The position numbers were made by a program, and so were the translations under genes. From assembly GCA_018818425.1 (NCBI GenBank), contig JAHISB010000002.1, positions 2,819 to 66,818 on the forward strand: a stretch of DNA of 64,000 nt, read 5' to 3'. How positions within the stretch are numbered: the stretch's first letter is position 1; each line of letters starts with the position of its first letter. Shown here piece by piece: positions 60 through 63,189 of the stretch. The notes beneath the pieces are model-generated. The model ran no database searches, was not told the DNA's origin, and saw only the letters and a program-made list of their open reading frames with translations. This DNA is from Patescibacteria group bacterium (GTDB lineage Bacteria > Patescibacteriota > Patescibacteriia > UBA1558 > UBA10009).

Positions 60-599
60 ATGGAATTAAAATCGCAGAGAATAAAGGCATCTTCAATGCT
101 AACCTTATTTACTAAAAGTCCAGATGGGATTACCAATGCTGAAATTAGGGAACGATTTGGTTATCCAGATCCTGAATACCCAAAATTGAAAATAATTCAT
201 CAAACTATTAATAATGGCAAAGACAATGCTATGGGCTTTCATTTCACCATAGATGAAAATAGCGATATGCTTTTAATCGCTAAGGGTGGTGAAACTTTTG
301 GTTATTATAGTCTTGATTTTTTAAAACAGAAAGCAGTTGAGAAAATTGGCAATGGTTTAATCCTTGTTTTAGCTGAAACAAAAAAACAAAAAGGTCACGA
401 ATTTTTTTATTATAAGGAAGCTTATATTCTTAAAGATATTGATCCTAAGAAATTTTTAGCACATTCAAAATATGATATTAGATTAGGAATTTACCATAGT
501 GGCAAGCTTGCTGGCACGCTTCATGACCATGGTTCAGCCTTTCGTATTACTCAAAAATCAATCCCTGATTTTTTTAGAATTAAAAGGAAAATACTTTAA
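60..599 (+). CDS. hypothetical protein; candidate type II restriction endonuclease partner of the adjacent methyltransferase
   Basis: 179 aa ORF with ATG at 60. Convergent with the MTase gene, and the two stop codons overlap (596-599). Possible D...ExK-like segment (IDEN...VLAETKK). AT-rich like the rest of the island. No confident family match by eye. Confidence 0.35.
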   Translation: MELKSQRIKASSMLTLFTKSPDGITNAEIRERFGYPDPEYPKLKIIHQTINNGKDNAMGFHFTIDENSDMLLIAKGGETFGYYSLDFLKQKAVEKIGNGLILVLAETKKQKGHEFFYYKEAYILKDIDPKKFLAHSKYDIRLGIYHSGKLAGTLHDHGSAFRITQKSIPDFFRIKRKIL

Positions 600-2470
600 T
601 TCTTTCTTAAAACTACAATACTCTCTTTATTCATAGTTTCTTCCAATTCACCAGCAATATTTGTCGGTGAGTTTTTTTTAGGCATTCTTTTGCCAGGAAT
701 ATTTCTGATAATTATATCTTCACAGGCCAAACCAATATTTTCTCCTAATTCTGCGATTATAAAATCGGTAGGTATCCTTACTTGTTTTACCATGCGGTTG
801 CCGATTACTAAACAGAAGTATTTATTCTTTTTTAATATTTTATGGGCTTGTTTTAAGCATTTATTTAAGTCAACGTAGAAACTAAGTACCTCCTTAGCTC
901 TTTTATCATCCTTTTTTCTAATTTGATCTATTGTTTGGTTTAAATAATCAGAATTTAGATTGTGCTTTAATTCTTTAACAGCTTTGCCGCCTAAAAGTAT
1001 ATTATCAACTTTTGAAGCCTCACTTTGATCTTTAAAAATATCAATCCATTGCGCTGAAAGCCTGGAAAATTGTCCATAGGCCACAGTTGTTCTACTGTCG
1101 CCATATGGCGGAGAAGTTAAAATAAAGTCAATAGAATTTTCTTTAATGCCATTATCTTTAGATGAGTCGCTAAAAATAATTTTAGTCCAAGTTTTTTTAT
1201 CAACATTTTTCTCAAATTCGCCCATAGCTTTAATATTGTTTTCAGTTTTCTTTTTGAATATTTCCAGAACATTAGGATTGTATTTTTCCAATACTTCTTT
1301 TTTAATTCTTACCAATTTAAACTCGCCATTCTTTGTATTAGAAGCCAGTCGTACTGTTTCACTAAATCCAACTAAAAAGAAATTCTGAATATTTTTATTT
1401 TTAATCTCTTTTATAGCTTTTTTAATTTTTGCTAATTCAATAATAACCTTATCTTTAAACCAGAAATCAATATTTAGAAATTCAGGTTTTTTAATCTGAT
1501 TTTTTTTAATTTTTCTTATCCTATCTAGTAACTTAAAATATTCATTCTGAAGTTTTGATGATGATATTTCAGTAGTTTTTGCTTTTGCTAAAAAAATTGC
1601 CAAAGGATTAAGATCTATGCCATAAGAGTTTCTGCCTAATAATCTGCTTTCTATTAGCGCTGTACCTGACCCACAGAAAATATCGCAAATTGCATCACCC
1701 TTTTTGCTGTAATTTTGTAAAAGCCGGCGTGCCACTTGTGGGATAAACATCGCCGGATATGTATGCAAACCATGCGTATATGATTTAGTTTTTTCACCGC
1801 GAAAATCCCATGAGTAGTCAATTCTGCGAGTGTATTTTTCATTGCTTGTTTTATCCTCTTCAATGTCTTTTTCTATATTTCTAATAATTTTCACCACAAC
1901 GCCCCTTACTTCAACTTCTTTTCTGTAAAAAGGAAACAAGGTAGGATTTGCCGGCTGTAGCCGAAATCTATCTTTTTCACGATATAATTTTTTTAAGGTG
2001 GCTTCATTATCATCAATTATAGCTACAACCATTTCACCATTATCAGCTGTCACTTGTTTTTTTAAAACAACAATATCACCATCAAAAATACCTTCATCAA
2101 TCATGCTGTTACCTTGGACTCTTAAAGCGTAGTGGTTGTGATAATTATGAAAATTATCTTTAGTTATGGTTATGGTTTCGTCTGGCGCTTCCACTGCTTC
2201 TATGGGCTGTCCGGCGGCAATAGTGCCAATTAGGGGAATTTCTATAGTATTATTTTGGTTTGTTTTTAGCTCTAAACCTCGTGATAGATGCTCATTTTTA
2301 ACCAAAAACCCTTTATCTATCAAAGCGTCAATATGCTGATATACCCCAGATAGGGCCTTCAGCTTAAAATACCTCTTTATTTCTTCAAAAGTAGGGGAGA
2401 TACCTTTCTTATTTATGTATTTTTTGATGTAATCGTAGATTTCCTTCTGTTTTTTAGTTAGGGTTGGCAT
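596..2470 (-). CDS. LexA-like repressor (HTH + S24 peptidase) fused to an amino (N6-adenine/N4-cytosine) DNA methyltransferase
   Basis: Continuous 624 aa ORF. N-terminal ~200 aa match LexA: winged HTH (LTKKQKEIYDYIKKYI...GISPTFEEI...HIDALIDKGFL), canonical cleavage site IAAGQPI, Ser in GNSM and Lys in ATLKKL. The C-terminal ~415 aa carry MTase motif X-I (HTYPAMFIPQVARRLL...DIFCGSGTALIE) and motif IV (ILTSPPYGD), i.e. alpha-like order with a TRD between them. ATG at 2470. Confidence 0.75.
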   Translation of the reverse strand: MPTLTKKQKEIYDYIKKYINKKGISPTFEEIKRYFKLKALSGVYQHIDALIDKGFLVKNEHLSRGLELKTNQNNTIEIPLIGTIAAGQPIEAVEAPDETITITKDNFHNYHNHYALRVQGNSMIDEGIFDGDIVVLKKQVTADNGEMVVAIIDDNEATLKKLYREKDRFRLQPANPTLFPFYRKEVEVRGVVVKIIRNIEKDIEEDKTSNEKYTRRIDYSWDFRGEKTKSYTHGLHTYPAMFIPQVARRLLQNYSKKGDAICDIFCGSGTALIESRLLGRNSYGIDLNPLAIFLAKAKTTEISSSKLQNEYFKLLDRIRKIKKNQIKKPEFLNIDFWFKDKVIIELAKIKKAIKEIKNKNIQNFFLVGFSETVRLASNTKNGEFKLVRIKKEVLEKYNPNVLEIFKKKTENNIKAMGEFEKNVDKKTWTKIIFSDSSKDNGIKENSIDFILTSPPYGDSRTTVAYGQFSRLSAQWIDIFKDQSEASKVDNILLGGKAVKELKHNLNSDYLNQTIDQIRKKDDKRAKEVLSFYVDLNKCLKQAHKILKKNKYFCLVIGNRMVKQVRIPTDFIIAELGENIGLACEDIIIRNIPGKRMPKKNSPTNIAGELEETMNKESIVVLRKN

Positions 2471-10207: not shown

Positions 10208-11200
10208 ATGAAAAAAAGATTCAAAAAATGGTTAGGCATTATTATTTTACTTTTTTTAATCTACCTAGTTTATTGGCTTTATACTGTCGATTTTTCTCAA
10301 GATAAAGAAGTAGAGTTTGGCGTAACCTTCAGCAATAAATATGCTCAAGAATTATCTTTAGATTCTCGCCAGGTTTTAATAGCTATTTTAGATGATTTAA
10401 AAGTTAAAAAGTTTCGTTTAATGGCCTACTGGGACGAAATTGAACAATTGCAAGACAGTTATAATTTCAGCCAGCTCGATTGGCAGCTCCAGGAGATTAG
10501 TCAGCGCCAGGGCGAAGTTATTTTGTCTATCGGCCACCGTCTGCCGCGCTGGCCAGAATGCCATTGGCCCGGCTGGACCTTTCAGCTTAGCCGGGAACAG
10601 CGCCAGCAGAAAATTTTAGAGCTTTTAGAAAAAACAGTAAAACGCTATCAAAATAATTCTGTTATCAAGGCCTGGCAAATAGAAAACGAACCATTTTTAA
10701 AAGTTTTTGGCGAATGCCCCAAGCCGGATAAAGATTTCTTTAAACAGGAGGTTCAGCTAGTCCGTTCATTGGATAATCGGCCCGTTATTATAACCGAAAG
10801 CGGCGAACTTTCTACCTGGCTTAGAGCCGCTAAACTGGCGGATTATGTTGGCAGCAGCGTTTATCGGATTACCTGGAATAAGCGCTGGGGTTATTTTTAT
10901 TATCCTCTGCCCCCCTCGCACTATTATTTAAAAGCCCAAATAGTCAGATTGCTGACTTCAGCTAAAGGTGTTTTTGTCAGCGAAATGCAAATGGAGCCGT
11001 GGCTGGGCATGCCTGCCCTGCTAACGCCTTTAAGCGAACAATATCATTCAATGAATGTCCAGCAGTTTCAAAAAAATCTTAATTATGCCAAAAGAACCGG
11101 CTTATCGCCGAATTATTTGTGGGGAGCGGAATGGTGGTATTGGCTTAGGGAGCAAGGTGATGGCAGCATCTGGCAGTTGGCTAAAGAGATTTGGCGATAA
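10208..11200 (+). CDS. membrane-anchored glycoside hydrolase, TIM-barrel (GH5-like)
   Basis: 330 aa. N-terminal TM, then WQIENEP (catalytic acid NEP motif) and ITESG (nucleophile-like TE) at GH5-like spacing. Confidence 0.5.
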   Translation: MKKRFKKWLGIIILLFLIYLVYWLYTVDFSQDKEVEFGVTFSNKYAQELSLDSRQVLIAILDDLKVKKFRLMAYWDEIEQLQDSYNFSQLDWQLQEISQRQGEVILSIGHRLPRWPECHWPGWTFQLSREQRQQKILELLEKTVKRYQNNSVIKAWQIENEPFLKVFGECPKPDKDFFKQEVQLVRSLDNRPVIITESGELSTWLRAAKLADYVGSSVYRITWNKRWGYFYYPLPPSHYYLKAQIVRLLTSAKGVFVSEMQMEPWLGMPALLTPLSEQYHSMNVQQFQKNLNYAKRTGLSPNYLWGAEWWYWLREQGDGSIWQLAKEIWR

Positions 11201-11204
11201 AACG

Positions 11205-11440
11205 TTTTGTCTTTCGACTCGTCGCTTTGCTCCTCGCTCAAGATATTCGACTCCTACTATGAGTGGTCGGAGTTTCTGAAGCGCAGCGAAGAAACGAAGA
11301 CTACCACTCGGCCTTGAGCTAGTGGCCGAAAGGTGAGCGGAGCCGAGCGATAGCGAGGCGGAGTCGAATAGTGGTACTGGCTCAAAGAACAGGGCGATAG
11401 CAGTATTTGGCAGCTGGCCAAAGAGATTTGGCCGGGCTAA
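11205..11440. repeat. imperfect ~170 nt palindrome followed by a diverged direct copy of the last ~73 nt of the upstream GH gene
   Basis: 11128-11200 (gene 3' end) and 11367-11440 are ~80% identical and in direct orientation. Between them, arms gctcaag.../...cttgagc and gagtggt/accactc pair. Both arms contain the CTCGGCT-N-CGCTC motif family. Confidence 0.6.
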
Positions 11441-19788: not shown

Positions 19789-20292
19789 ATGGATAAACAG
19801 AAAACAGATTTAAAAGTCAAAAAAGATCATCAAAATAAACTGGAAGAGCTTCAGGCAAAGTGCGATGAATACTTAAACGGCTGGAAGCGGGCTAAAGCAG
19901 ATTATGAAAATTTTAAAAAAGAATCAGAAAAAAGAGTAACTGGCCTAGTTGAATTTGCCACTGCCGGAATGATTTTAGAAATCCTGCCGGTCCACAGTCA
20001 TTTTAAATTAGCATTGGAGCATGTGCCCGAGGATGATAAAAAAGCTGAATGGGTTCAGGGCATAATGCATATAAAAAGGGAATTTGAAGATTTTTTTAAA
20101 AAATTAGATATTGTTGAAATTAAAACTATCGGCGAAAAGTTCAATCCGGAATTTCACGAAGCGGTAAGTCATGAAGAATCGGACCAAGAAGATGATATAA
20201 TTATTAAAGAAGTTCAGCCGGGCTATATGCTTAAAGAACAGGTAATTCAGCCGGCCAAGGTCGTTGTTTCTAAACTAGTGAGTAGTGAGTAG
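19789..20292 (+). CDS. grpE: nucleotide exchange factor GrpE
   Basis: Track start is GTG 19777; in-frame ATG at 19789. YLNGWKRAKADYENFKK matches the GrpE coiled-coil signature. C-terminal beta domain (KEQVIQPAKVVVSK). Confidence 0.8.
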   Translation: MDKQKTDLKVKKDHQNKLEELQAKCDEYLNGWKRAKADYENFKKESEKRVTGLVEFATAGMILEILPVHSHFKLALEHVPEDDKKAEWVQGIMHIKREFEDFFKKLDIVEIKTIGEKFNPEFHEAVSHEESDQEDDIIIKEVQPGYMLKEQVIQPAKVVVSKLVSSE

Positions 20293-20309
20293 GGTGTAGG
20301 GGTAGAAGG
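20275..20309. repeat. left inverted-repeat arm (gtagtgagtagggtgtaggggtag words) flanking the four-helix-bundle gene
   Basis: Imperfectly complementary to 20701-20748 (tactccctacgcactacaacc). The word gtgtaggggtag recurs at 25297-25308. Confidence 0.5.
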
Positions 20310-20334
20310 ATTTCAATTATTAACAATTAAATAT

Positions 20335-20715
20335 ATGAAAAGCGATTTTATACAATCTTATAGGGATCTTATTGTATGGCAGAAGTCGATGGACCTAGTT
20401 AAAGTCATTTACGAATTGACTAAGCAATTTCCGGAAACAGAGAAATTTGGGCTAATATCCCAAATGAGAAGAGCGGCAGTTTCAATTCCTTCTAATATTG
20501 CCGAAGGGTTCAGAAGAGGCGCTAGAAAGGATTACCGTTACTTTCTGATAATAGCATTTGGCTCTGGCGCGGAATTAGAAACCCAAATAGAAATCTCTAA
20601 AAGGCTGGAATTTTGCAATAATTTTAACTATTCAAAAGTCGATGGTTTACTAGGGGAAATAATGAAAATATTGAATGTATTTATAAAAAAGCTAGGCAAT
20701 AGTACTACAACCTAG
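20335..20715 (+). CDS. four-helix-bundle protein (23S rRNA intervening-sequence protein family, TIGR02436-like)
   Basis: 126 aa. YRDLIVWQKSMDLVKVIYELTKQFPETEKFGLISQMRRAAVSIPSNIAEG...GSGAELETQIEIS closely matches the family consensus. Confidence 0.8.
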   Translation: MKSDFIQSYRDLIVWQKSMDLVKVIYELTKQFPETEKFGLISQMRRAAVSIPSNIAEGFRRGARKDYRYFLIIAFGSGAELETQIEISKRLEFCNNFNYSKVDGLLGEIMKILNVFIKKLGNSTTT

Positions 20716-20748
20716 TTTACTACAATCTACTCCCTACGCACTACAACC
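20701..20748. repeat. right inverted-repeat arm flanking the four-helix-bundle gene
   Basis: Reverse complement contains gtagtgcgtagggagtag, pairing with the left arm words. Confidence 0.5.
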
Positions 20749-20754
20749 TAAAAT

Positions 20755-21081
20755 ATGGACAACAAAGGACAATTCAGTTTAAAGCTAATCCAAAAATGCC
20801 CGGTCTGCAATCACGATTATCTGGAGGGCAAAATTCAGATTCTTGAAGAAGCCGATGTCAGCTTTTTGGCTTATTTGACTTGCGGCCATTGCCATTCCAG
20901 CATTATCGTCAGGGTTATGACTCTGCCACACGGCATGGTGGGCAATGCCATACTTACCGACCTTTCCAGCGATGAAGTGGGAAAATTCTCCGAAGCCGAG
21001 GTTTTAAACAGCAACGAAGTTTTACAAGTTTATCAGGAGCTTTGGCAAAGCGAGGGGTTTTTGGAGAAGATGAAACAATAA
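20755..21081 (+). CDS. zinc-ribbon-containing hypothetical protein
   Basis: 108 aa with CPVC...CGHC pairs. Confidence 0.45.
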   Translation: MDNKGQFSLKLIQKCPVCNHDYLEGKIQILEEADVSFLAYLTCGHCHSSIIVRVMTLPHGMVGNAILTDLSSDEVGKFSEAEVLNSNEVLQVYQELWQSEGFLEKMKQ

Positions 21082-21163: not shown

Positions 21164-23137
21164 ATGTCAAAAATACTAGGTATCGACCTCGGTACCACAA
21201 ATTCCGCCATGGCCATTATGGAAGGCGGACAGCCGAAAATTTTAGAAAATAAAGAAGGCAACAGAACCACCCCTTCGATGACGGCTATTTCTAAAAACGG
21301 CGATCGTTTGGTCGGCCAGTTAGCTAAACGCCAGGCCGTAACCAATCCGGAGAACACTTTATTTTCCATTAAGCGCTTAATCGGCAGAAAGTTTGAAGAC
21401 GAGGAAGTCCAGCGCGATATTAAAACCATGCCTTATAAAATTATTAAGGCGGGCCCTTCGGCAGGCTCAGGAGGGACCGAAGGCGTAAAAGTCATTATGA
21501 GCGATAAGGAATATACGCCCCAGGAAATTTCGGCCATGATTCTGCAAAAGCTTAAAGCAGACGCCGAAGCCAAGCTGGGCGAAAAAATAGAGGAAGCGGT
21601 TATAACCGTGCCTGCTTACTTTGACGATTCGCAAAGGCAGGCCACCAAAGACGCTGGAGAAATTGCCGGCTTTAAAGTCAGGCGCATTATCAACGAGCCC
21701 ACGGCCGCGGCTTTGGCCTACGGTTTTGACAAAAAAAAGAATCAACAGATCGCCGTTTACGATTTAGGCGGCGGCACTTTCGATATTTCTGTTTTGGATG
21801 TTTCCGAAGATACCGTGGAAGTTAAATCCACCAACGGCGACACTCACTTAGGCGGTGATGATTTTGATCAGAAAATTATCAACTGGATCATTGATGAATT
21901 TAATAAAGACCAGGGCATTAATCTGACCGGTGATGCCATGGCCATGCAGAGAGTTAAAGAAGCTGCCGAAAAAGCCAAGGTTGAACTTTCTACCTCTACG
22001 GAAACCGAAATCAACCAGCCCTTTATCACCACCGATGCCAACGGTCCAAAACATTTGGTTTTAAAATTAACCAGAGCCAAGCTTGAAGAGCTGGTCGGCA
22101 ATTTAGTTGATAAAACCTTTGAGTCAGTCGATTTAGCTATCAAAGATTCCGGCTTTAAAAAAGAAGAAATTGACGAAGTAGTTTTAGTGGGCGGCATGAC
22201 CAGAATGCCCATGGTGCAAAAGAAAGTTGAGGAATTCTTTGGCAAAAAGCCGAATATCAGCGTTAATCCGGATGAAGTGGTGGCTTTGGGCGCGGCTGTG
22301 CAGGCCGGCGTTTTGCAGGGCGATGTTAAAGATGTGCTGCTTTTAGATGTTACCCCGTTGACCTTGGGCATAGAAACTTTAGGCGGAGTCAGAACTCCTT
22401 TAATTGAAAAAAATACCACCATTCCCACTTCCAAATCCCAGATATTTTCCACGGCCGCCGACAGCCAGACCTCGGTAGAAATTCATGTTTTGCAGGGCGA
22501 AAGGGAAATGGCCGAAGACAATAAAACTTTGGGCCGGTTTATCCTTTCGGGCATTCTTCCCGCTCCTCGCGGGGTTCCTCAAGTGGAAGTTACTTTTGAT
22601 ATAGACGCTAACGGCATTGTCAACGTCAAAGCGGCAGATAAAGCCACCGGCAAGGAGCAATCAATTACCATTACCGCCTCATCCGGGCTTTCCAAAGATG
22701 AAGTGGAAAAAATGAAAAAAGAAGCCGAGCTTAATGCCGAAGAGGATAAAAAGAAAAGGGAACTGGTTGATGCCAAAAATAATGCCGATTCCGCCATCTT
22801 CCAGACCGAAAAAATCCTTAAAGAATCAGGCGACAAAGTCCCGGCAGATGTTAAAAAAGAAGTAACTGAAAAAATGGAAGCTTTGAAAAAAGTCAAAGAC
22901 GGCAACGATGCCGCAGTCATCAATAAAGCGTTGGAAGATATGAATCAAACAGTGCAGAAGATTGGGCAGGCCATGTATCAATCTCAACAAGCTGGACAGA
23001 CACCCCCAACTGGCAATCAAGAACCCCAGCCATCAACCTATGGTCAGCCATCCGAAGAAAAGAAGTCTGATGGACCGGTTGAGGCAGAATTTGAAGACGT
23101 CAAAGACGATCAGAAACCAGAAGAACCAAGTAAGTAA
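21164..23137 (+). CDS. dnaK: molecular chaperone DnaK (Hsp70)
   Basis: 657 aa. [19 protein letters not shown], full NBD and SBD, acidic C-terminus. Confidence 0.95.
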
Positions 23138-23213: not shown

Positions 23214-23948
23214 ATGAAACCATCTGATATAAAAAAAATCGTTAAAGAAAAATATCAGAAAATTGCCAGAAGTAGCGGCGGTTGTGGTTGCAGTTGCCAG
23301 AATCAGAGTGTATCTAAAAACATTGGTTACTCTAATGAAGAACTACAAACCGTTGGCCAAGCCAATATGGGCTTAGGTTGTGGCAATCCCATTGCTTTAA
23401 GTAAAATAAAAGAAGGCGATGTAGTAGTAGATTTAGGCAGTGGCGCTGGCATTGACTGTATTTTAGCCAGTAAGAAAGTTGGCTCAGCCGGCAAAGTTAT
23501 TGGCATAGACATGACCGAAGAAATGATAGCCAAGGCAGAAGCTAACGTAAAAAATTTAGGTCTATTTAATATTGAATTTATGCTGTCGGATATAGAAGAT
23601 TTACCGCTTAACAATGAATCTGCCGATGTCATTATTAGTAATTGCGTAATTAATTTGGCGCCGGATAAGTTAAAAGTTTTTATAGAATCTAACAGAATTT
23701 TAAAACCCGGCGGCAGAATGTATGTATCTGACATTGTACTGTTAAAAGAATTATCAGAAATACAAAGTAAAGACAAAGAGCTGATTTCAGGTTGCGTAGC
23801 CGGCGCTCTGCTTAAAGAAGATTATATAAATAAATTATCCCAAGCTGGATTTAAAATTAATATTCTTTCCGAAAATAAGGATATCAGCAAAGAGCAGTAT
23901 CAAGCCATTCCTTTAGAGAGTATTATGATAGAAGCAATAAAACAGTAA
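23214..23948 (+). CDS. arsM: arsenite S-adenosylmethionine methyltransferase ArsM family
   Basis: 244 aa. Matches ArsM throughout: VKEKY, GCGCSC, LGCGNP, VVDLGSGAGID, IGIDMTEEM, VIISNCVINL, LKPGGR, GCVAGAL. All four conserved Cys are present. Confidence 0.75.
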   Translation: MKPSDIKKIVKEKYQKIARSSGGCGCSCQNQSVSKNIGYSNEELQTVGQANMGLGCGNPIALSKIKEGDVVVDLGSGAGIDCILASKKVGSAGKVIGIDMTEEMIAKAEANVKNLGLFNIEFMLSDIEDLPLNNESADVIISNCVINLAPDKLKVFIESNRILKPGGRMYVSDIVLLKELSEIQSKDKELISGCVAGALLKEDYINKLSQAGFKINILSENKDISKEQYQAIPLESIMIEAIKQ

Positions 23949-23957: not shown

Positions 23958-24044
23958 ATGGGCAAAGACTGCTACAAAACACTGGGCGTAGATAAAAACG
24001 CCTCTCGGCTTCGCTCGAGACTTTTAAGAATGACAAAAAAGTAA
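23958..24044 (+). pseudogene. diverged 5' fragment of a dnaJ J-domain (28 codons) immediately upstream of intact dnaJ
   Basis: Translates MGKDCYKTLGVDKNAS..., compared with MSKDYYNTLGINKEAS of the true DnaJ at 24055. Followed by the gcctctcggcttcgctcgagac motif. Confidence 0.5.
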
Positions 24045-24054
24045 GCAAATAAAC

Positions 24055-25161
24055 ATGAGTAAAGACTATTACAACACACTTGGTATTAACAAAGAAGCCA
24101 GTCAGGAAGAAATTAAGAAAGCTTTTCGCAAGAAAGCCCACGAACATCATCCGGACAAAGGCAATGGCAATGCCGACAAGTTTAAGGAAGTCAACGAAGC
24201 TTATCAGGTTTTGGGCAAGCCGGAAAAACGCCGGCAGTACGACCAGTTTGGCACCACTTTTGAAGGCATGGGCGGACAGGCCGCTTATGATGCGGGCTTT
24301 GACTGGGCCGATATGTTCAGGCAGGGCGGTCCTTCTTCTGGTTATAGAACTTCCGGCTTTAATATTAATTTTGATGATTTAGGCGATATCTTCGGCGACT
24401 TTTTCGGCGGGTCAAGAACATCCGGAAGATCCTCAAGGGGCGTGGACATGGAAGCCAGTTTAACCATTGGCTTTGAAGAGGCGGTTTTTGGCATAGAAAA
24501 AGTTTTAGATATTTCCAAGCAGATAGTCTGCGATAAGTGCCGCGGCAACGGAGCCGAGCCCAATACCAAAATCATCAACTGCAAAACCTGCGGTGGCAGC
24601 GGCCAGGTGACCACTACCCAGCAAACATTTTTTGGCGCCTTTCGCTCTAATTCAGTTTGTCAAAATTGCGGCGGTGAAGGCAAGGTTTCCGAAAAAAAAT
24701 GTACTCAATGTCATGGTTCCGGCGTAACCCAGGGCCAAGAAAGAATCAAGGTTAAAATTCCGGCCGGCATCAGCAACAATGAAACCATCAAGCTCTCGGG
24801 CAAAGGCGAGGCCGGGGTCAGCGGTTTGCCGGCGGGCGATTTATATATTCATATTACGGTTCCGCCTCATCATCAGTTTTCCAGAGAGGGCGATAATATT
24901 TTCACCGCTAAAAACATCAGTTTTAGCCAGGCCGCGCTGGGCGCTAAAGTCAGAGTTAAAACTTTAGACGGCGAGGTGAATTTAAAAATTCCGTCCGGCA
25001 CCCAGTCGGGCAGGCAGTTTATTTTAAAAAACAAGGGCTCTCATAAACTCCGGGGCCGGGGCAGGGGAGATATGATTGTGGAAGTCAAAATTCAGGTTCC
25101 CGGTAATCTTTCCCAAAAGCAGAAAAAATTATTGGAAGAGTTAGCTGATGAAGGACTCTAA
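24055..25161 (+). CDS. dnaJ: molecular chaperone DnaJ
   Basis: 368 aa. J domain with HPD, G/F-rich region, four CxxCxGxG zinc-finger repeats, C-terminal domains. Confidence 0.9.
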   Translation: MSKDYYNTLGINKEASQEEIKKAFRKKAHEHHPDKGNGNADKFKEVNEAYQVLGKPEKRRQYDQFGTTFEGMGGQAAYDAGFDWADMFRQGGPSSGYRTSGFNINFDDLGDIFGDFFGGSRTSGRSSRGVDMEASLTIGFEEAVFGIEKVLDISKQIVCDKCRGNGAEPNTKIINCKTCGGSGQVTTTQQTFFGAFRSNSVCQNCGGEGKVSEKKCTQCHGSGVTQGQERIKVKIPAGISNNETIKLSGKGEAGVSGLPAGDLYIHITVPPHHQFSREGDNIFTAKNISFSQAALGAKVRVKTLDGEVNLKIPSGTQSGRQFILKNKGSHKLRGRGRGDMIVEVKIQVPGNLSQKQKKLLEELADEGL

Positions 25162-25290: not shown

Positions 25291-25349
25291 TAAAAGTGTA
25301 GGGGTAGGTATGCGCCTCGGCGCGCTACAATATACCACTATTTTTGATT

Positions 25350-31116: not shown

Positions 31117-31433
31117 GATTTTCACCCTTACCTTTCTGATATTTTTTTCTTTTATTTTTTTTGACTTTGTTATTAATCCTAGTAAAAAATGGAGAGTCAA
31201 TTTAGAGTTTTTGGTCTTCGGTCATCAATCATCAATTTTCACTAATAGCACAAACTAACAATAGACGAACACAAATATTCACAAACTTAACACAAACTAA
31301 CGTAGTAAATACAGCATTAACTACCCAGTTTTTACCAGGATTGTTTGTCAAAGTCCGTAAATTGACCCCTTACTGTAGCAAATTTTGGCGATTTTGTCAA
31401 CCCAAAAATAAAAAATGGCTGAAGTTAGCCAAA

Positions 31434-31735
31434 TATCACCGATCTATCACAGATGAATCACCGATCTATCACGGATAAATCACTGATAAATCACCGATCT
31501 ATCACGGATAAATCACTGATAAATCACAGATCTATCACGGATAAATCACCGATAAATCACCGATCTATCACCGATAAATCACGGATGAATCACTGATTGA
31601 TAATATAAAGTATCGGTGATTCATCCGTGGATATCCGTGATAGATCCGTGTATCTCCGTGATTTATCGGTGAGCCATCTGTGCGCTATCTGTCGATAGAC
31701 CCCGAGCTTATCGAGGAGTGAACTATCGGTGATTT
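31434..31735. repeat. ~300 bp imperfect palindrome built from ~25 tandem 10-bp units (ATCAC[C/G/T/A]GAT[C/A]TA)
   Basis: ~16 direct units (31434-31598), AT-rich centre (tgataatataaagta), then ~9 reverse-complement units (31610-31700). Extends into the last codons of dusB. Same TCACNGAT words at 17490-17570 and 21082-21125. Confidence 0.8.
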
Positions 31736-34545: not shown

Positions 34546-34639
34546 GCTAAACTCCTAACAAAAGAACAAGGCACCTCAGCGTATCTCAGCGGTTATCAGT
34601 GAATAATTCTTGATTTTTGATCCTCAATCATCAATCCTC

Positions 34640-34672
34640 CCAGCCAGAGGCTGGTCGGCCTTTGGCCGAAAT
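34640..34672. repeat. short variant of the GC-rich tandem-hairpin element
   Basis: cccagccagaggctggtcggcctttggccgaaatc equals copy B with the inner 28 nt deleted. Confidence 0.6.
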
Positions 34673-35244: not shown

Positions 35245-35528
35245 TAGTCTAAAAGTTTTCTTTGAATTTTTTGTGTAGAGTATGAACAATGGGATAATCG
35301 TTGTATTAACAATACCGGTTAGAGAAATTCCAAATCCAAAATCACAAATAACAAATAAATTCCAAATTCCAAAAATAAAATATCACTGATCATCACTAAG
35401 ATATGCTGACCATTTGCTGATACACGCTCGCCTTGAGCGAAGTCGAGAGGCGAAGCAGGCTGATAATCCGCGGATATCAGCGTACCTCGGCGCATCTCGG
35501 CGGTTATTGGTGAATAATTCTCAATCCT

Positions 35529-35591
35529 CCCAGCCAGCCTTCGGCCGTGAGCTCAGGCCGAACGGAGGCTGGTCGGCCTCTGGCCGAAATC
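35529..35591. repeat. full-length GC-rich tandem-hairpin element (copy B)
   Basis: cccagccagccttcggccgtgagctcaggccgaacggaggctggtcggcctctggccgaaatc. 35529-35574 is the exact reverse complement of 54130-54175. Confidence 0.85.
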
Positions 35592-39521: not shown

Positions 39522-39608
39522 CCGATAATAAAAATTTTGCCTTTTATCATTCCGAGCTTACCTGAGGAATCTTGTTACTTTAACGATAATCATGTTGTGT
39601 CAAGATCC

Positions 39609-39657
39609 CTCCGCGTTGGCCGTTCGGCCGCGAGCTCACGGCCGAGTGGTCGGGATG
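39609..39657. repeat. diverged copy of the GC-rich tandem-hairpin element (copy D orientation)
   Basis: ccgcgttggccgttcggccgcgagctcacggccgagtggtcggg shares ttcggccg(c/t)gagctca(c/g)ggccga with copies B and D. Confidence 0.6.
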
Positions 39658-39708
39658 ACATTTTAAGCGAAATTTTTTATTTGCCAATTTATCAATCAAT
39701 CGTTATAA

Positions 39709-39836
39709 TATACCCAATTGCTTTAATAAAATAGAAAATACTCCAAAGCGATGCGTTAATATTAATACTAATATTAGATAAAATAATTCAAATTATTCAA
39801 TTAGCAAAATCGGAATTATTAAAGCGAAGGAGTATA
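39709..39836. repeat. ~130 bp AT-rich dispersed element, copy 1 (directly upstream of dnaX)
   Basis: Near-identical to 62841-63006. Ends AAAGCGAAGGAGTATA (SD-like AAGGAG) 9 nt before the dnaX ATG. Internal inverted 7-mers atactcc / ggagtat. Confidence 0.85.
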
Positions 39837-39844: not shown

Positions 39845-40939
39845 ATGTCAACCACTTTATACCGCAAATATCGTCCGCAAACCTTTGCCGAGGTCATCAA
39901 TCAGAACCATGTTAAAGTTACTTTGCGGAACGAGGTTGCTTCCGGCAAACTAGCCCATGCTTATCTTTTTTCGGGCCCAAGGGGCATTGGTAAAACCACT
40001 ATGGCCAGAATTTTGGCCAAGAGCGTCAACTGCCCCAATCAAAAAAAAGCCGAGCCCTGCAATAAGTGCCAGTCGTGCCTAGAAATCACCCAGGGCAACT
40101 GCTTGGATTTAATAGAAATTGACGCCGCTTCCAACCGGGGCATTAACGAAATCAGAGAACTGCGCGAGCACGTTAAGTATGCTCCGAGCAAGAATAAATA
40201 TAAAGTTTTTATCATCGACGAAGTCCATATGCTGACCGCCGAAGCTTTTAACGCCCTGTTAAAAACTTTAGAAGAGCCGCCCGGCCATGTTATTTTTATT
40301 CTGGCCACCACCGAACTTCATCAGCTGCCGGAAACAATTATTTCCCGCTGCCAGCGCTTTGACTTTAGAAAAATTTCTTTTAAAGAAATCGCCGGCCATT
40401 TAGAAATGATTGCGGCCGCCGAAAAAGTCAAGGTGGCTAAAAAGGTTATAGAAACTATCGCCCGCACCAGCGAAGGTTATGTCAGGGATGCTATTTCGCT
40501 CTTGGGCCAGATTTTGGCTTTGGGCGAAAAAGAAATCAGCGAAGCAGAGGCCTCGTTGGTTTTGCCCCGTTCGGACATCAATCAAATCATCATTTTTATC
40601 AAACAGCTTTTAGAACATCAATCGGCCGCAAGCATCCGCTTAATCAACCAGTATCTTAATGACGGCGGAGAGCTGGAAAATTTTACCAAGGAGGCCATCG
40701 AAGTTTTAAGAAAAATTTTGGTAGCTAAAGTAACTGACGGCTGGCAGGAGCTGGCCTGGGAAGTTCCCGAGGAGGAATCAAAATCATTGATGGTTTTGTT
40801 GGAGAAAGTTGAAGCTGATTATTTAGTTCAAGTAATCGAAATTTTGCTGGAGGCCTTGACCCGGCTAAAGCGCGCTGATATAATCCAGCTTCCGCTGGAA
40901 ATGGCCATCGTTAAAATCAGCGAATTAAAGAGTGAATAA
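39845..40939 (+). CDS. dnaX: DNA polymerase III subunit gamma/tau (short form)
   Basis: 364 aa. YRPQTFAEVINQ, Walker A GPRGIGKTT, zinc module CNKCQSC, SRC motif. Confidence 0.85.
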   Translation: MSTTLYRKYRPQTFAEVINQNHVKVTLRNEVASGKLAHAYLFSGPRGIGKTTMARILAKSVNCPNQKKAEPCNKCQSCLEITQGNCLDLIEIDAASNRGINEIRELREHVKYAPSKNKYKVFIIDEVHMLTAEAFNALLKTLEEPPGHVIFILATTELHQLPETIISRCQRFDFRKISFKEIAGHLEMIAAAEKVKVAKKVIETIARTSEGYVRDAISLLGQILALGEKEISEAEASLVLPRSDINQIIIFIKQLLEHQSAASIRLINQYLNDGGELENFTKEAIEVLRKILVAKVTDGWQELAWEVPEEESKSLMVLLEKVEADYLVQVIEILLEALTRLKRADIIQLPLEMAIVKISELKSE

Positions 40940-40944
40940 CTATT

Positions 40945-41005
40945 CGGAGGTCGTCTAATGGCCGCCCGCCTTCGCCTCTCGGCTGCGCTCGAGGCTTCGG
41001 CGGAC
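40945..41005. repeat. tRNA 5'-fragment-like sequence plus CTCGGCT-N-CGCTCGAG motif upstream of tRNA-Gln
   Basis: cggaggtcgtctaatggccgcc resembles the 5' acceptor/D-arm of the downstream tRNA (cggggatcgtctaatggtagga). Followed by cctctcggctgcgctcgaggc. Confidence 0.45.
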
Positions 41006-41061
41006 TTTGATCAGCACATGGAAAATTGTTTTAAATCATTCGAAGCTTCAGCGTAGAATGA

Positions 41062-41135
41062 TCGGGGATCGTCTAATGGTAGGACACTGGGTTCTGGTCC
41101 CAGCAATCGGGGTTCGAGTCCCTGTCCCCGAGCCA
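41062..41135 (+). tRNA. tRNA-Gln (anticodon CUG), CCA encoded
   Basis: Cloverleaf by hand: acceptor TCGGGGA/TCCCCGA (U1-A72), D arm GTCT-AATGGTA-GGAC, anticodon arm CTGGG-TTCTGGT-CCCAG (U33, CUG, G37), variable CAAT, T arm CGGGG-TTCGAGT-CCCTG, discriminator G, CCA. Confidence 0.8.
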
Positions 41136-41274
41136 GTCTTCGTCTCTCGGCTCGTTACACTCGCTCGAGGCTGCGGCTGGCAGGCCGATTATCAAAAGGC
41201 AGTATTAGCACTGTTTTTTAATAAAACTGTGGAAAGAAACTAAGTTTCAAATATCAAATTATCAAGTTTCAAGT

Positions 41275-42939: not shown

Positions 42940-43070
42940 GGTAGCCAAAGGGCTATTTTTTTAGTATAATGTTAGATATGGGAACATGTGAACATGGGAA
43001 CATTAGAACACTTGCTCCCATGCTCCCATGTTCTAATGCTTTAATGCTTTAATGCTTTAATGCTTTAATT
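42940..43070. repeat. intergenic word palindrome (gaacatggga / tcccatgttc) plus tandem aatgcttta x4
   Basis: Word family shared with 63030-63135. Confidence 0.55.
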
Positions 43071-44051
43071 ATGAAACACAATATCATCACCATCGGCGGC
43101 TCAACAGAAGACATCATGTTTTATACCAAAGAAGCCGTGTTGGTCAGAAACAACAAGGATATTCTTAGGCAGCAGTTGCTGGGTTTTGAATTTGGCGCCA
43201 AGATCGTCGGCGAGAAAGTTTTTTTTACTTATGGCGGCGGCGGTTCTAATACGGCTGTCAACTTTTCTAAACTGGGCTTAAAAACCGGCGTTATCACAGC
43301 AATCGGCGATGACGACAACGGCCAGAGAATCATCAAAAATTTCAAAAATAATAAGGTTAGCGCTGCTAATATTCAGACAATCAAAAAAGTCCCCAGCGGG
43401 CTTTCTTTTATTGTCAATTTTTCCGGCACCACCGAGCATGTTATTTTCACTTATCGTTCGGCCAATAATCAGTTGCTAATTTCAGAAAAGAGTTTAAGCA
43501 AAGCCAAAGCAGACTGGTTTTACCTTGCTTCGCTGTCAGGGCCAAAGTGGCCGGCTAATCTGAAAAATATTTTTGAGCATTCCGCCAAAAAGAAAATCAA
43601 GATTGGCTGGAACCCCGGCGCTAGCCAGTTAGCCAAGGGCTATTCATCATTAAAAAAATATCTTCAACAAACAGAAGTTTTAATTTTAAATAAGGACGAA
43701 GCCATTGAACTGGTTTTAAGCTCCGGCTATAAAACGCAAAACATCAATCAACTGTTAAAATATTTAAAACTGATGGGCCCGGCAGTTGTTGCCATAACCC
43801 AAGGCGCTAAAGGAGCTGCGGTTTGCTCCGGCAATCAAATCTGTTCGGAAAAAGCTTTACCAATCCAAGGTATTAATACCACGGGCGCCGGCGATGCCTT
43901 TGGTTCCAGCTTGGTTGCCGGTTTGATTATTTATAAAGATTTAGCCAAAGCTCTAAAACTGGCCATCCATCAGAGTAATTATGTTATCCGAGAAATTGGA
44001 GCGCAGAAAGGGCTGCTTTCGATTGCTCAATTAAAAAAGAATGTTGAATAA
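43071..44051 (+). CDS. PfkB-family carbohydrate kinase
   Basis: 326 aa. C-terminal NTTGAGDAFGSSLVAGL motif. Confidence 0.7.
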   Translation: MKHNIITIGGSTEDIMFYTKEAVLVRNNKDILRQQLLGFEFGAKIVGEKVFFTYGGGGSNTAVNFSKLGLKTGVITAIGDDDNGQRIIKNFKNNKVSAANIQTIKKVPSGLSFIVNFSGTTEHVIFTYRSANNQLLISEKSLSKAKADWFYLASLSGPKWPANLKNIFEHSAKKKIKIGWNPGASQLAKGYSSLKKYLQQTEVLILNKDEAIELVLSSGYKTQNINQLLKYLKLMGPAVVAITQGAKGAAVCSGNQICSEKALPIQGINTTGAGDAFGSSLVAGLIIYKDLAKALKLAIHQSNYVIREIGAQKGLLSIAQLKKNVE

Positions 44052-54077: not shown

Positions 54078-54176
54078 ACCGAAGACTTCGGCCATGAGCC
54101 ATAGGCCATCATCCTTTGGCTGAAAGGCCGACCAGCCTCCGTTCGGCCTGAGCTCACGGCCGAAGGCTGGCTGGGA
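54078..54176. repeat. GC-rich tandem-hairpin element, copy D (inverted relative to copy B)
   Basis: 54130-54175 is the exact reverse complement of 35529-35574. The flanks share the ggctggtcggcct core. Confidence 0.85.
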
Positions 54177-54241
54177 AAACTGAAGACTAATAAGATTCAT
54201 AATTGACGAAAAGCTTTGTAAACTGTTATAATAAATTCACT

Positions 54242-56241: not shown

Positions 56242-56251
56242 GTTGCTAGGC

Positions 56252-56390
56252 TGAATAAGTTTGATAAGTCATATAAGTTTAATGAGTTTAATAAGTTGAG
56301 TAAGTTCGATAAACTACGGAAGTAAACTTATTCAACTTATTCAACATATTCAACTTATTCAACGTATTCAACTTATTCAACATTTTAAAT
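56252..56390. repeat. intergenic palindrome of ~14 nine-bp units (gaataagtt ... aacttattc)
   Basis: Seven forward units, centre acggaagta, seven reverse-complement units. Confidence 0.75.
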
Positions 56391-58604: not shown

Positions 58605-58626
58605 AAATCCATTGAGAGTTCATTAC

Positions 58627-58678
58627 TCTTTGTCATTTCGAGCGGAATGAAATGGAGTCGAGAAATCCCTTAAGAAAG
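58627..58678. repeat. TTTGTCATTTCGAGCGGAATGAAATGGAG element upstream of the GIY-YIG gene
   Basis: Matches 51526-51580. Preceded by atccattgagagttcattac, related to 53557-53576. Confidence 0.7.
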
Positions 58679-58686: not shown

Positions 58687-58989
58687 ATGGTAAAAAGAGA
58701 ATATAACTTTTATGTTTATATCATGGCCAGCGCATCAGGCACATTATATGTGGGCATGACTAATGATTTAGAACGTCGGGTAGATGAGCATAAACGAGGA
58801 TTAATTGAATGCTTTACTAAAAAGTATTCATGTCATAAATTAGTCTATTATGAACATTTTACGGATGTTTATGAAGCTATTGAAAGAGAAAAACAGATAA
58901 AAAGATGGCGCAGAGAAAAAAAACAGAACCTTATCAGAACTATTAACCCTATCTGGAAAGATTTAGGTTTAGAATCAGAATGGGAATAA
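58687..58989 (+). CDS. GIY-YIG nuclease family protein (small, standalone)
   Basis: 100 aa. YNFYVYIMASASGTLYVGMTNDLERRVDEHKRG... (GIY...YVG motif, Arg, Glu). Confidence 0.75.
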   Translation: MVKREYNFYVYIMASASGTLYVGMTNDLERRVDEHKRGLIECFTKKYSCHKLVYYEHFTDVYEAIEREKQIKRWRREKKQNLIRTINPIWKDLGLESEWE

Positions 58990-59023
58990 TCATTTTTCTT
59001 TTTATTTCATTATCCTTTGTCAT

Positions 59024-59136
59024 TTCGACTGGAGCGGAGCGGAACGGAGAAATCCCTTGATTAGAAGAAGTAAGGGATCTCTCCGCTCACCTTCATTCAC
59101 TTCGCTCATTACGGTTCGGTCGAGATGACAAAGAGG
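59024..59136. repeat. TGTCATTTCGAC-family nested hairpin downstream of the GIY-YIG gene
   Basis: cctttgtcatttcgac / gtcgagatgacaaagagg outer stem. ggagaaatccctt / aagggatctctcc inner stem. Confidence 0.7.
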
Positions 59137-62840: not shown

Positions 62841-63006
62841 TATACCCAATTACTTTAATAAAATAGAAAATACTCCGACCTGTCCCGCGAAGTTTTAACG
62901 TAGCGGGAAGCGATGCGTTAATATTGATACTAATATTAGATAAAATAATTCAATAATTCAAATTATTCAATTAGCAAAATCGGAATTATTAAAGCGAAGG
63001 AGTATA
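62841..63006. repeat. ~130 bp AT-rich dispersed element, copy 2 (between mreC and mreD)
   Basis: Matches 39709-39836, with a 34-nt hairpin insertion (cccgcgaagttttaacgtagcggg) and an 8-nt duplication. Followed by the gaacatgggagca word palindrome (63030-63135). Confidence 0.85.
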
Positions 63007-63189
63007 TAACTCCGAAGCGGCGGAGCTTAGTATGAGAACATGGGAGCATGAGAACATGGGAGCACTAGAACATGGGAGCATTAGAACATTGGAGCACTTG
63101 CTCTTATGCTCCCATGTTCCAATGTTCTCATGCTAAACTTCGGGGCATTATACGGAATTATTTAAGCAATTGAGTATAAATTAAAATGA

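What the first reader, a model, noticed from the sequence alone, without database searches (positions are those of the whole stretch)
23958..24054. Diverged dnaJ 5' fragment (28 codons) just upstream of intact dnaJ, followed by the CTCGGCT-T-CGCTCGAG motif
23958-24044 translates to MGKDCYKTLGVDKNASRLRSRLLRMTKK. Its first 16 residues parallel the J-domain start of the true DnaJ 11 nt downstream (MSKDYYNTLGINKEAS), at only ~65% nucleotide identity. The source may therefore be a different dnaJ allele, not a recent tandem slip. The fragment is followed by gcctctcggcttcgctcgagac. The same motif flanks the tRNA at 40975 and 41150 and occurs in the GH palindrome. Three independent partial gene duplications all sit next to one short palindromic motif, which suggests a site-specific recombination or insertion mechanism.
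Basis: partly seen in the sequence, partly recalled or inferred. Interest (0 to 1): 0.6.

Follow-up and report, generated by a model that had tools for sequence, protein, structure and literature searches.

The report
Leftover dnaJ start beside hairpin repeat
A 16-codon leftover of a second, once-working dnaJ start sits just upstream of the intact dnaJ gene, joined to a small GC-rich hairpin repeat; two other genes in the window show the same scar, which points to gene ends being swapped by recombination with foreign DNA at these repeats.

Summary
23958-24005 encodes a genuine DnaJ N-terminus and ends at a GC-rich hairpin repeat (24000-24041), 13 nt before the intact dnaJ (24055). It is not a decayed copy of the resident start. 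It fits a profile of 56 DnaJ N-termini better than the resident does, and it is 83% identical to the dnaJ start of another lineage against 69% to the resident.

In the nearest relative, dnaJ starts 2 nt after the arsM-like stop, so the stub marks the ancestral start.

The same layout (displaced gene end, hairpin repeats, intact gene) occurs at tRNA-Gln (40944-41135) and at the 3' end of a glycosidase-like gene (11123-11440). The hairpin has a variable 5-bp stem and a conserved loop, TCGRCT-N-CGCTC. It occurs in many phyla, inserts in frame into genes, and flanks small UPF0213-type GIY-YIG nuclease genes, including one at 58687-58989. No integrase or transposase was found.

Best reading: scars of recombination with DNA of a related lineage. 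One crossover lay inside the conserved gene; the other end was joined by microhomology at a hairpin repeat, possibly after nuclease cleavage. The closest parallel is the terminus-replacing endonuclease elements of fungal mitochondria. The mechanism is inferred, not shown.

The parts
23214..23948 (+). Arsenite-methyltransferase-like gene (arsM-like) between dnaK and dnaJ. Its stop codon lies 9 nt before the stub.
   Evidence: Pfam Methyltransf_31. NCBIfam NF008823, 292 bits, above its cut-off. Relative L008 has arsM stop + 2 nt + dnaJ ATG.
23958..24005 (+). dnaJ 5' stub: 16 codons, MGKDCYKTLGVDKNAS. The open frame runs on through the hairpin to the TAA at 24042-24044.
24000..24041 (+). GC-rich hairpin repeat. 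Stem GCCTC/GAGAC (4 of 5 pairs), loop TCGGCTTCGCTC, then cttttaaga and the family's usual tail ATGACAAAAAAG. Its 5' edge overlaps stub codons 15-16.
24042..24054 (.). 13-nt AT-rich spacer (TAAGCAAATAAAC) before the dnaJ ATG.
24055..25161 (+). Intact dnaJ (368 aa).
   Evidence: Pfam DnaJ, DnaJ_CXXCXGXG and DnaJ_C. Homologues.
40944..40961 (+). tRNA-Gln 5' stub (18 nt), 4 nt after the dnaX stop codon.
   Evidence: In L139 and L140 an intact tRNA-Gln starts 1 nt after the dnaX stop.
40962..41003 (+). Hairpin repeat with outer stem CCGCC/GGCGG and inner stem GCCTC/GAGGC.
41035..41062 (+). Second hairpin with an AT-rich stem (ATCATTCGAAGCT/AGCGTAGAATGAT), abutting the tRNA start.
41062..41135 (+). 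Intact tRNA-Gln (CTG).
41136..41180 (+). Hairpin repeat in direct orientation after the tRNA. The loop is longer, and the outer stem includes the tRNA CCA end.
11123..11200 (+). 3' end of the glycosidase-like gene 10208-11200, in frame and functional. This is the copy contiguous with the gene.
11201..11359 (.). Cluster of 3-4 hairpin repeats. TATTCGACTCC (11244-11254) is the exact inverted complement of the first 11 nt of the stub.
11360..11440 (+). Displaced 3' stub of the glycosidase-like gene: GVE*WYWLKEQGDSSIWQLAKEIWPG*, with an in-frame stop.
   Evidence: 51.2 bits against a control maximum of 22.3.
35425..35455 (-). Solo hairpin repeat (CTTCGCCTCTCGACTTCGCTCAAGGCGAGCG) in an intergenic repeat region, with no gene fragment.
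   Evidence: The same form occurs in metagenome loci L145-L151.
58619..58671 (-). Hairpin repeat of the same family, left flank of the GIY-YIG gene.
58687..58989 (+). Free-standing GIY-YIG nuclease gene (UPF0213 type, 100 aa).
   Evidence: Pfam PF01541, E 2e-17. PDB 1ZG2 and 1YWL, both UPF0213. phmmer hit.
59006..59135 (.). Right flank of the GIY-YIG gene: a direct copy of the repeat (59006-59058) followed by an inverted copy (59075-59135).

Best explanation
23958-24005 is the displaced 5' end of a second dnaJ allele that was functional until recently. It stands where dnaJ originally began, right after the arsM-like stop codon. A block was spliced in behind codon 16, so the gene stayed intact and the old start became a dead stub. 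That block consists of a GC-rich hairpin repeat, 13 nt of spacer and a different copy of codons 1-16, possibly with more of the gene.

The most likely process is recombination with DNA from a related lineage. One crossover lay inside the conserved gene body. The other end was joined illegitimately through a few bases of microhomology at the hairpin repeat in the donor's flanking DNA. This is homology-facilitated illegitimate recombination. It may have started from a break made at the hairpin by the UPF0213-type GIY-YIG nuclease whose gene is flanked by the same repeats.

Shown: the stub is real, it resembles a functional allele, and it lies at the ancestral position. The hairpin sits exactly at the junction. 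The same architecture occurs at two other genes. The hairpin family is mobile and is associated with GIY-YIG genes.

Inferred: the donor, the direction of the swap, the type of recombination, and any role for the nuclease.
For: 1. The stub is a true DnaJ start. It scores 32.2 on a profile built from 56 homologue N-termini, against 29.3 for the resident start; real N-termini range from 30.9 to 40.9. None of 20,000 simulated copies of the resident start with 15 random substitutions reached the stub's score, and only 5e-5 of copies with 8 substitutions did.
2. The stub is 40/48 identical to the dnaJ start of L007. It is 33/48 identical to the resident start, 34/48 to L003 and 32/48 to L008.
3. 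Ancestral positions. L008 has arsM stop + 2 nt + dnaJ ATG, with no stub and no hairpin. L139 and L140 have dnaX stop + 1 nt + tRNA-Gln.
4. Each of the three stubs in the window ends or begins at a hairpin repeat. Scans of about 200 gene starts and 217 gene ends in 22 Patescibacteria loci found only these.
5. Differences between copies fall mainly at third codon positions: 5/2/8 for dnaJ and 2/3/10 for the glycosidase-like gene.
6. Microhomology at the junctions. CGCC(TCT) is shared by dnaJ codons 14-16 and the repeat's usual 5' flank CTTCGCCTCTCG. GGAG-CG-AAT-GTGG is shared by the glycosidase-like gene and a repeat arm.
7. Similarity between the two copies stops at the gene start, as expected for long-separated alleles.
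8. The repeat is a structured, mobile element. In 169 of 256 copies the 5-bp stem is fully paired, against 1 in a shifted control, and the stems covary. It is inserted in frame in genes of L148 and L149. It is spread over many phyla.
9. GIY-YIG genes lie within 130 nt of a repeat in 4 of 7 cases, across three phyla. They are the only cross-phylum family recurrent next to the repeat.
10. Relatives L003 and L004 carry repeat-like hairpins with an ATGACAA tail directly upstream of dnaJ, so donors with this layout exist.
11. The structure is identical in an independent assembly, L002, and 99.96% identical in L001.
Against: The four available lineages are about equidistant (DnaK 76-82%, DnaJ 67-75%). 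It therefore cannot be decided which 5' end is native and which was imported, and no mosaic breakpoint is visible inside dnaJ.

The segments are short (48, 18 and 73 nt). For the glycosidase-like stub alone, duplication in place followed by decay fits the counts as well as the two-allele model does.

No nuclease gene lies at the dnaJ junction.

Motif copies in other genomes show no stubs, so the repeat is not sufficient by itself.

L138 carries a tRNA-Gln stub followed by a hairpin and then an IS element. This keeps a transposon- or integrase-linked route open.

The stub could come from a paralogous J-protein gene elsewhere in the same genome, which I could not inspect. Competence for DNA uptake in this organism was not examined.
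Confidence: 0.5

Rival explanations
1. Active homing. The hairpin repeats are the ends or targets of a mobile unit driven by the UPF0213 GIY-YIG nuclease. The nuclease cuts near a gene end, repair copies the repeat-bearing allele of another lineage together with its adjacent gene terminus, and the native terminus is left as a stub. The nuclease ORF has since been lost at this site. This would be the bacterial counterpart of the mitochondrial mobile endonuclease ORFs.
For: The GIY-YIG gene at 58687-58989 is bracketed by direct copies of the repeat, just as tRNA-Gln is. The repeat-GIY-YIG association holds in three phyla. L114 has tRNA-Pro, then the repeat, then a GIY-YIG gene. tRNA-Gln is broken at nearly the same D-loop position in two lineages. 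Mitochondrial precedents show 63.5% identity between the inserted and the native terminus (PMC3630166).
Against: No nuclease ORF lies between any stub and its gene. The three targets share no common site. UPF0213 proteins have no demonstrated homing activity that I could find. Most repeat copies have no GIY-YIG gene nearby.
Confidence: 0.22
2. Site-specific integration. An integrase- or transposase-bearing element integrated into the 5' part of the gene and carried a replacement 5' end, as attP sites do in tRNA genes. Its body was later deleted, leaving about 100 nt.
For: The tRNA duplicates share an identical 11-nt stretch, TCGTCTAATGG. In L138 an IS with a DDE transposase follows the tRNA-Gln stub and hairpin. 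tRNA genes are classical integration targets (established knowledge).
Against: No recombinase or transposase was found in the window. The dnaJ copies share no identical core; the longest identical run is about 7 nt, and only GCC is shared at the junction. The third case lies at a 3' end with yet another sequence. Three near-complete deletions would be required.
Confidence: 0.1
3. Local tandem duplication during insertion of the repeat (a long target duplication or replication slippage), followed by divergence in place. The stub decays freely while the gene copy collects synonymous changes.
For: The layout, copy-insert-copy, is that of a target duplication. For the glycosidase-like gene the numbers fit this model: about 5 amino-acid changes including a stop, and about 10 silent changes. 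A codon-position bias of 7/5/18 is not significantly different from what this model predicts (my calculation).
Against: The dnaJ stub is more consensus-like than the resident start, and simulated decay never reproduces this. It is closer to L007's dnaJ than to the resident. At 21-31% divergence a neutral stub should carry more damage than the single Y-to-C change seen.
Confidence: 0.1
4. The 28-codon ORF is a functional upstream peptide or regulatory leader of dnaJ and not a relic. Alternatively, the whole arrangement is chance or an assembly artefact.
For: The frame is open for 28 codons and starts with ATG. The hairpin could act as an attenuator; terminator-like hits were found only on the minus strand.
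Against: It is absent from all relatives. The similarity is far beyond chance. The arrangement was reproduced in independent assemblies. No Pfam family matches the peptide. The tRNA and 3'-end cases cannot be leader peptides.
Confidence: 0.03

Closest known systems
Terminus-replacing mobile endonuclease ORFs of fungal mitochondria (Allomyces macrogynus atp6; Glomus atp6, atp9, cox2 and nad3)
   Same: A partial, strongly diverged duplicate of a gene end; the Glomus atp6 copies are 63.5% identical. The copy contiguous with the gene keeps it intact, and the displaced copy is a stub. The origin is DNA of another lineage. GIY-YIG or LAGLIDADG nucleases are involved (PMC3630166, read).
   Different: Here the host is a bacterial chromosome. 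Two of the three cases are at 5' ends, and one target is a tRNA gene. No endonuclease ORF lies between the copies, only small hairpin repeats. The nuclease family is UPF0213, not a characterised homing enzyme.
Homology-facilitated illegitimate recombination during natural transformation
   Same: One end recombines by homology and the other by an illegitimate join (definition in the abstract of PMC3240628, listed). The junctions here show 4-12 nt of microhomology, and the homologous anchor would be the conserved gene.
   Different: It is known from laboratory crosses in a few competent species. Here it is only inferred from scars. The recurrent use of one hairpin repeat family at the illegitimate end is not a described feature.
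REP/REPIN elements with RAYT transposases
   Same: Short GC-rich hairpins repeated in intergenic DNA. In Sphingomonadales they occur as inverted doublets 12-20 nt apart, like REPINs (PMC3116915 and PMC3337134, listed). A single-copy gene is flanked by the repeats.
   Different: The flanked gene is a GIY-YIG nuclease, not a Y1 (IS200/IS605-like) transposase. There is no GTAG head. The conserved part is the loop, and the stem varies. The family spans many phyla.
Rickettsia palindromic elements and mitochondrial GC clusters or double-hairpin elements
   Same: Small palindromic repeats in AT-rich, reduced genomes that also land in frame inside protein-coding genes. Comparison from my own knowledge of those families.
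   Different: Different sequence families and hosts. Diverged gene-end duplicates at their borders are not a described feature of Rickettsia palindromic elements.

Membership tests
REP/REPIN-RAYT system | Short GC-rich imperfect palindrome present in many intergenic copies | tested here: met
   4-5 core copies in 64 kb plus related hairpins. Stem pairing in 169 of 256 copies.
REP/REPIN-RAYT system | A cognate RAYT (Y1 transposase) gene flanked by the repeats | tested here: not met
   No Y1 transposase among the window ORFs. The gene flanked by repeats is a GIY-YIG nuclease. No other recurrent cross-phylum neighbour was found.
REP/REPIN-RAYT system | Inverted doublets (REPINs) | tested here: inconclusive
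   Present in the Sphingomonadales copies. The window copies are single or in direct orientation.
Mitochondrial-type terminus-replacing endonuclease element | Diverged duplicate of a gene terminus, with the gene kept intact and a displaced stub | tested here: met
   dnaJ 69%, tRNA-Gln 16/18, glycosidase-like gene 79%.
Mitochondrial-type terminus-replacing endonuclease element | Endonuclease ORF located between the two copies | tested here: not met
   Only 49, 100 and 159 nt lie between the copies, all of it hairpin repeats and spacer.
Mitochondrial-type terminus-replacing endonuclease element | The native stub groups with close relatives and the inserted terminus is foreign | tested here: inconclusive
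   The stub is 83% identical to L007, and the resident start is the least typical of 57 N-termini. But the lineages form a star phylogeny.
Homology-facilitated illegitimate recombination scar | Microhomology of a few bases at one junction and a homologous tract at the other | tested here: inconclusive
   Microhomology is seen or inferred at the dnaJ and glycosidase-like junctions. The homologous crossover point is not detectable.
Homology-facilitated illegitimate recombination scar | A host able to take up DNA | not tested
   Competence genes were not sought, and the genome is incomplete here.
Integrase att site in a tRNA or protein gene | An identical core shared by both copies, and an integrase gene in the inserted DNA | tested here: not met
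   An 11-nt identical run is present only at the tRNA. There is none at the dnaJ junction and no integrase in the window.
Diversity-generating retroelement (template and variable repeat) | Differences confined to adenines of the template, with a reverse transcriptase nearby | tested here: not met
   The substitutions are of all types. No reverse transcriptase was found. The only Avd-like protein is a 23S-IVS four-helix-bundle protein.

The most novel reading that the evidence does not exclude
UPF0213 GIY-YIG nucleases and their cognate hairpin repeat (variable 5-bp stem, conserved loop TCGRCT-N-CGCTC) form a cross-phylum mobile system. The system moves between related genomes by break-induced recombination. 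In doing so it replaces the ends of housekeeping genes (dnaJ, tRNA-Gln, a glycosidase-like gene) with foreign versions and leaves the native ends as stubs. This would be a bacterial counterpart of the mitochondrial mobile endonuclease ORFs and would give a function to a widespread family of unknown role.
Probability: 0.2. Interest if true: 0.75.

Novelty: new variant of a known kind. Interest (0 to 1): 0.5.

Why it matters
Patescibacteria have tiny genomes and are thought to depend on DNA and nutrients from other cells. Direct traces of how foreign DNA enters their core genes are scarce.

This 64-kb window holds three scars in which a housekeeping gene end was exchanged next to one family of hairpin repeats. 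The same repeat family occurs in Alphaproteobacteria, Bacteroidota and other phyla, next to small GIY-YIG nuclease genes whose function is unknown.

If the link is causal, it would explain how these repeats spread, what the UPF0213 nucleases do, and why short pseudo-starts and pseudo-ends of genes appear beside repeats. Such fragments can also mislead gene callers and phylogenies.

Tried and rejected
- Rfam, at gathering and at relaxed thresholds: nothing at the dnaJ site, and only the tRNA at the other site.
- Folding energies of the single repeats do not differ from shuffled sequences (z between -1.3 and +0.2). The stem covariation across copies carries the structural argument instead.
- Similarity between the two copies upstream of the gene starts is not significant. 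The idea that the duplicated unit includes the arsM or dnaX 3' end was therefore dropped.
- A search for a mosaic breakpoint in dnaJ by sliding-window identity found none.
- A search for a donor through arsM homologues found nothing closer than 75%. dnaJ has nothing between 74% and 100%.
- The import model, in which arsM plus the stub came from a donor, could neither be supported nor excluded.
- An apparent flank repeat around the L149 repeat proved to be an ordinary in-frame insertion in a phosphoesterase gene.
- An apparent similarity between the arsM N-terminus and the DnaK C-terminus is judged compositional, because that arsM N-terminus is typical of the family.
- Literature searches for the motif sequence and for a link between GIY-YIG and REP-like repeats found nothing relevant.
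- The viral-contig scan returned only GC-rich copies of the same repeat and chance coding matches.

Full report
**Context**

The window is part of a 91-kb contig of a Patescibacteria genome related to Komeilibacteria. The same sequence occurs in an independent Logan assembly (L002, 100% over 9.2 kb) and in an ENA assembly (L001, 99.96%).

The local gene order is hrcA, grpE, a four-helix-bundle (23S-IVS) protein gene, a small gene, dnaK (21164-23137), an arsenite-methyltransferase-like gene (23214-23948), the finding, and dnaJ (24055-25161).

**Checking the observation**

- Its first 16 residues score 53 against DnaJ residues 1-16. The best unrelated 16-mer among all six-frame windows scores 26.
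- DNA identity between the two copies is 33/48. The differences fall 5, 2 and 8 at codon positions 1, 2 and 3.
- The motif lies at 24000-24021. With up to two mismatches it occurs three times in the window, against 0.02 expected.
- A variant with a longer loop follows tRNA-Gln.

**What the stub is**

I built a profile from the N-termini of 56 DnaJ homologues. The stub scores 32.2 and the resident start 29.3. Real N-termini range from 30.9 to 40.9.

None of 20,000 simulated copies of the resident start carrying 15 random substitutions reached the stub's score. With 8 substitutions, only 5e-5 did.

The stub is 40/48 identical to the dnaJ start of another lineage, L007. It is 33/48 identical to the resident start.

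The stub is therefore the start of a different allele that was functional until recently, with one damaging change (Tyr5 to Cys). It is not a decayed local copy.

**Where it sits**

In the relative with the closest DnaJ (L008, 74%), the methyltransferase stop codon is followed after 2 nt by the dnaJ ATG, with no stub and no hairpin. The stub, 9 nt after the same stop codon, therefore marks the ancestral start. The intact gene has been pushed 97 nt downstream.

**The same scar elsewhere in the window**

*tRNA-Gln.* An 18-nt copy of the tRNA 5' end (40944-40961, 16/18 identical) lies 4 nt after the dnaX stop. It is followed by a hairpin repeat, a second hairpin, and the intact tRNA at 41062-41135, with a further repeat behind it.
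- In relatives L139 and L140 the intact tRNA-Gln starts 1 nt after the dnaX stop.
- The closest relative, L138, also has a 19-nt tRNA-Gln stub followed by a similar GC-rich hairpin and then an IS element.

*Glycosidase-like gene (10208-11200).* Its last 24 codons recur at 11360-11432. The two copies are 58/73 identical, with differences of 2, 3 and 10 by codon position and an in-frame stop in the downstream copy. They are separated by 159 nt that consist of three or four hairpin repeats.

*Scans for further cases.* I scanned the starts and ends of about 200 genes in the window and in 21 other Patescibacteria loci. Apart from one tandem paralogue pair, no further stub was found.

**The hairpin repeat**

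- It has a variable 5-bp stem around a conserved loop, TCGRCT-N(1-3)-CGCTC. The stem is fully paired in 169 of 256 copies, against 1 in a shifted control. Several stem versions covary (GCCTC/GAGGC, GTGTC/GACAC, GTCTC/GAGAC, GCGTC/GACGC and others).
- In low-GC genomes it is usually followed by (A/G)TGACA.
- It is not specific to this lineage. These came from Sphingomonadales (as inverted doublets), Bacteroidota, Myxococcales, Planctomycetes, Acidobacteria and several Patescibacteria.
- In related metagenome contigs it is inserted in frame into a glycosyltransferase gene and a phosphoesterase gene.
- A repeat of another GC-rich family adds eight residues to this window's DnaK.
- The dnaJ copy is slightly degenerate: 4 of 5 stem pairs, and 9 nt inserted before the tail.

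**Associated genes**

The Pfam scans and the precomputed table for L001 show no integrase, resolvase, IS200/IS605 TnpA or DDE transposase in the window.

The window does contain a 100-residue GIY-YIG nuclease gene of the UPF0213 type (58687-58989). It is bracketed by direct copies of the repeat, with an inverted copy behind.

Across the loci fetched through the motif, 4 of 7 GIY-YIG ORFs lie within 130 nt of a repeat. These four come from Erythrobacter, a flavobacterium, a Patescibacteria genome (where the order is tRNA-Pro, repeat, GIY-YIG) and this window. GIY-YIG is the only cross-phylum protein family recurrent beside the repeat.

**Junctions**

- The usual 5' flank of the repeat is CTTCGCCTCTCG. 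dnaJ codons 14-16 read AAC GCC TCT, so 4 to 7 bases are shared at the join.
- In the glycosidase-like gene the sequence GGAGCGGAATGGTGG meets GGAGTCGAATAGTGG. The first 11 nt of the latter are the exact complement of a repeat arm 105 nt upstream.
- Similarity between the two copies ends at the gene start. This is expected if the copies diverged for a long time as working genes in separate lineages.

**Interpretation**

The three loci are best read as scars of recombination with homeologous DNA. The conserved gene supplied the homologous side. The donor's flanking DNA, which carried hairpin repeats, was joined at microhomology inside the recipient's gene end. This duplicated the gene end.

Relatives with repeat-like hairpins directly upstream of dnaJ exist (L003 and L004), so suitable donors are plausible.

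Two things remain open: whether a nuclease cut at the hairpin starts the process, and which of the two dnaJ starts is native. The four available lineages are about equidistant, and no closer relative exists in the protein collection.

**Comparison with known systems**

The closest parallel is the mobile endonuclease ORFs of fungal mitochondria. They carry a foreign gene terminus and leave the native one as a diverged stub; in Glomus atp6 the two copies are 63.5% identical (PMC3630166).

Homology-facilitated illegitimate recombination provides the general mechanism (PMC3240628).

The repeat resembles REP/REPIN elements in form. It fails their defining test, because the associated gene is a GIY-YIG nuclease and not a RAYT transposase.

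I found no paper describing this repeat or its link to GIY-YIG genes.

**Verdict**

This is a new variant of a known kind of event. It is of moderate interest, and the mechanism is still inferred.

Noticed in passing
window 21444-21489: DnaK carries an in-frame 8-residue insertion (PSAGSGGT) that is absent from the DnaK of L003 and L007. It is encoded by a GC-rich hairpin (CCTTCGG...CCGAAGG) of a second repeat family. A palindromic element sits inside a highly conserved chaperone gene.
   Followed up: partly
L148 about 237-262 and L149 1726-1751: The same hairpin repeat is inserted in frame into a glycosyltransferase gene (PASPLDFARGER) and into a metallophosphoesterase gene (SPRAKSRGEAG) in related metagenome contigs.
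   Followed up: partly
window 20263-20763: The four-helix-bundle (23S rRNA intervening-sequence) protein gene 20335-20715 is bracketed by inverted repeats (24 nt, 83% complementary). It occupies the place where relatives L003 and L007 have an HSP20 gene, so it looks like a small mobile cassette. A similar GTGTAGGGGTAGG sequence lies downstream of dnaJ at 25295-25331.
   Followed up: partly
L138 2994-4183: In the closest relative, the dnaX stop is followed by a 19-nt tRNA-Gln stub, a near-perfect 13-bp GC hairpin and an IS element (DDE_Tnp_1 with DDE_Tnp_1_assoc). The contig ends inside the IS. The tRNA-Gln D-loop appears to be a recurrent breakpoint.
   Followed up: partly
window 31402-31621; also 42970-43072, 56247-56389, 63021-63150: Intergenic arrays of very short tandem units (11-nt ATCACNGATNN, and 8-nt and 9-nt units, some as inverted arrays). 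Around the 11-nt array at about 31.4-31.6 kb, L001 aligns to the window in two overlapping blocks, which fits a copy-number difference there.
   Followed up: no
L003 5850-6000 versus L004 5770-6000: A 41-nt tandem repeat containing a repeat-like hairpin and a GTGACAAAGA tail lies just upstream of dnaJ. It has 2 copies in one sample and 4 in another, although the DnaJ proteins are identical.
   Followed up: partly
window 35521-35579, 54125-54183, 39599-39661, 34631-34671, 11303-11333: A second GC-rich palindromic family (CCTCCCAGCCAGCCTTCGGCCGTGAGCTCAGGCCGAACGGAGGCTGG). Two of its copies are 95% complementary over 59 nt.
   Followed up: no
window 39782-39836 and 62952-63006: A 55-nt sequence is repeated with 100% identity. 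One copy lies just upstream of dnaX; the other lies between the gene ending at 62811 and the ORF starting at 63233.
   Followed up: no
window 39845-40939: DnaX is a short form (364 aa) here and in its close relatives (365-370 aa). More distant Patescibacteria have 505-550 aa. The short form ends directly at the tRNA-Gln position.
   Followed up: no
window 596-2470 (minus strand): A single 624-aa ORF combines LexA DNA-binding and peptidase S24 domains with an N6/N4 DNA methylase domain. It lies next to an MvaI/BcnI-type restriction endonuclease gene (60-599). It may be a fusion, or two genes read as one.
   Followed up: no
window 40856-40884: A strong promoter-like site (TTGACC, 17 nt, TATAAT with an upstream TG; 11 of 12 matches) lies inside the dnaX 3' end, about 60 nt before the tRNA-Gln stub. 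It may be the original tRNA promoter, now reading through the stub and hairpins.
   Followed up: no
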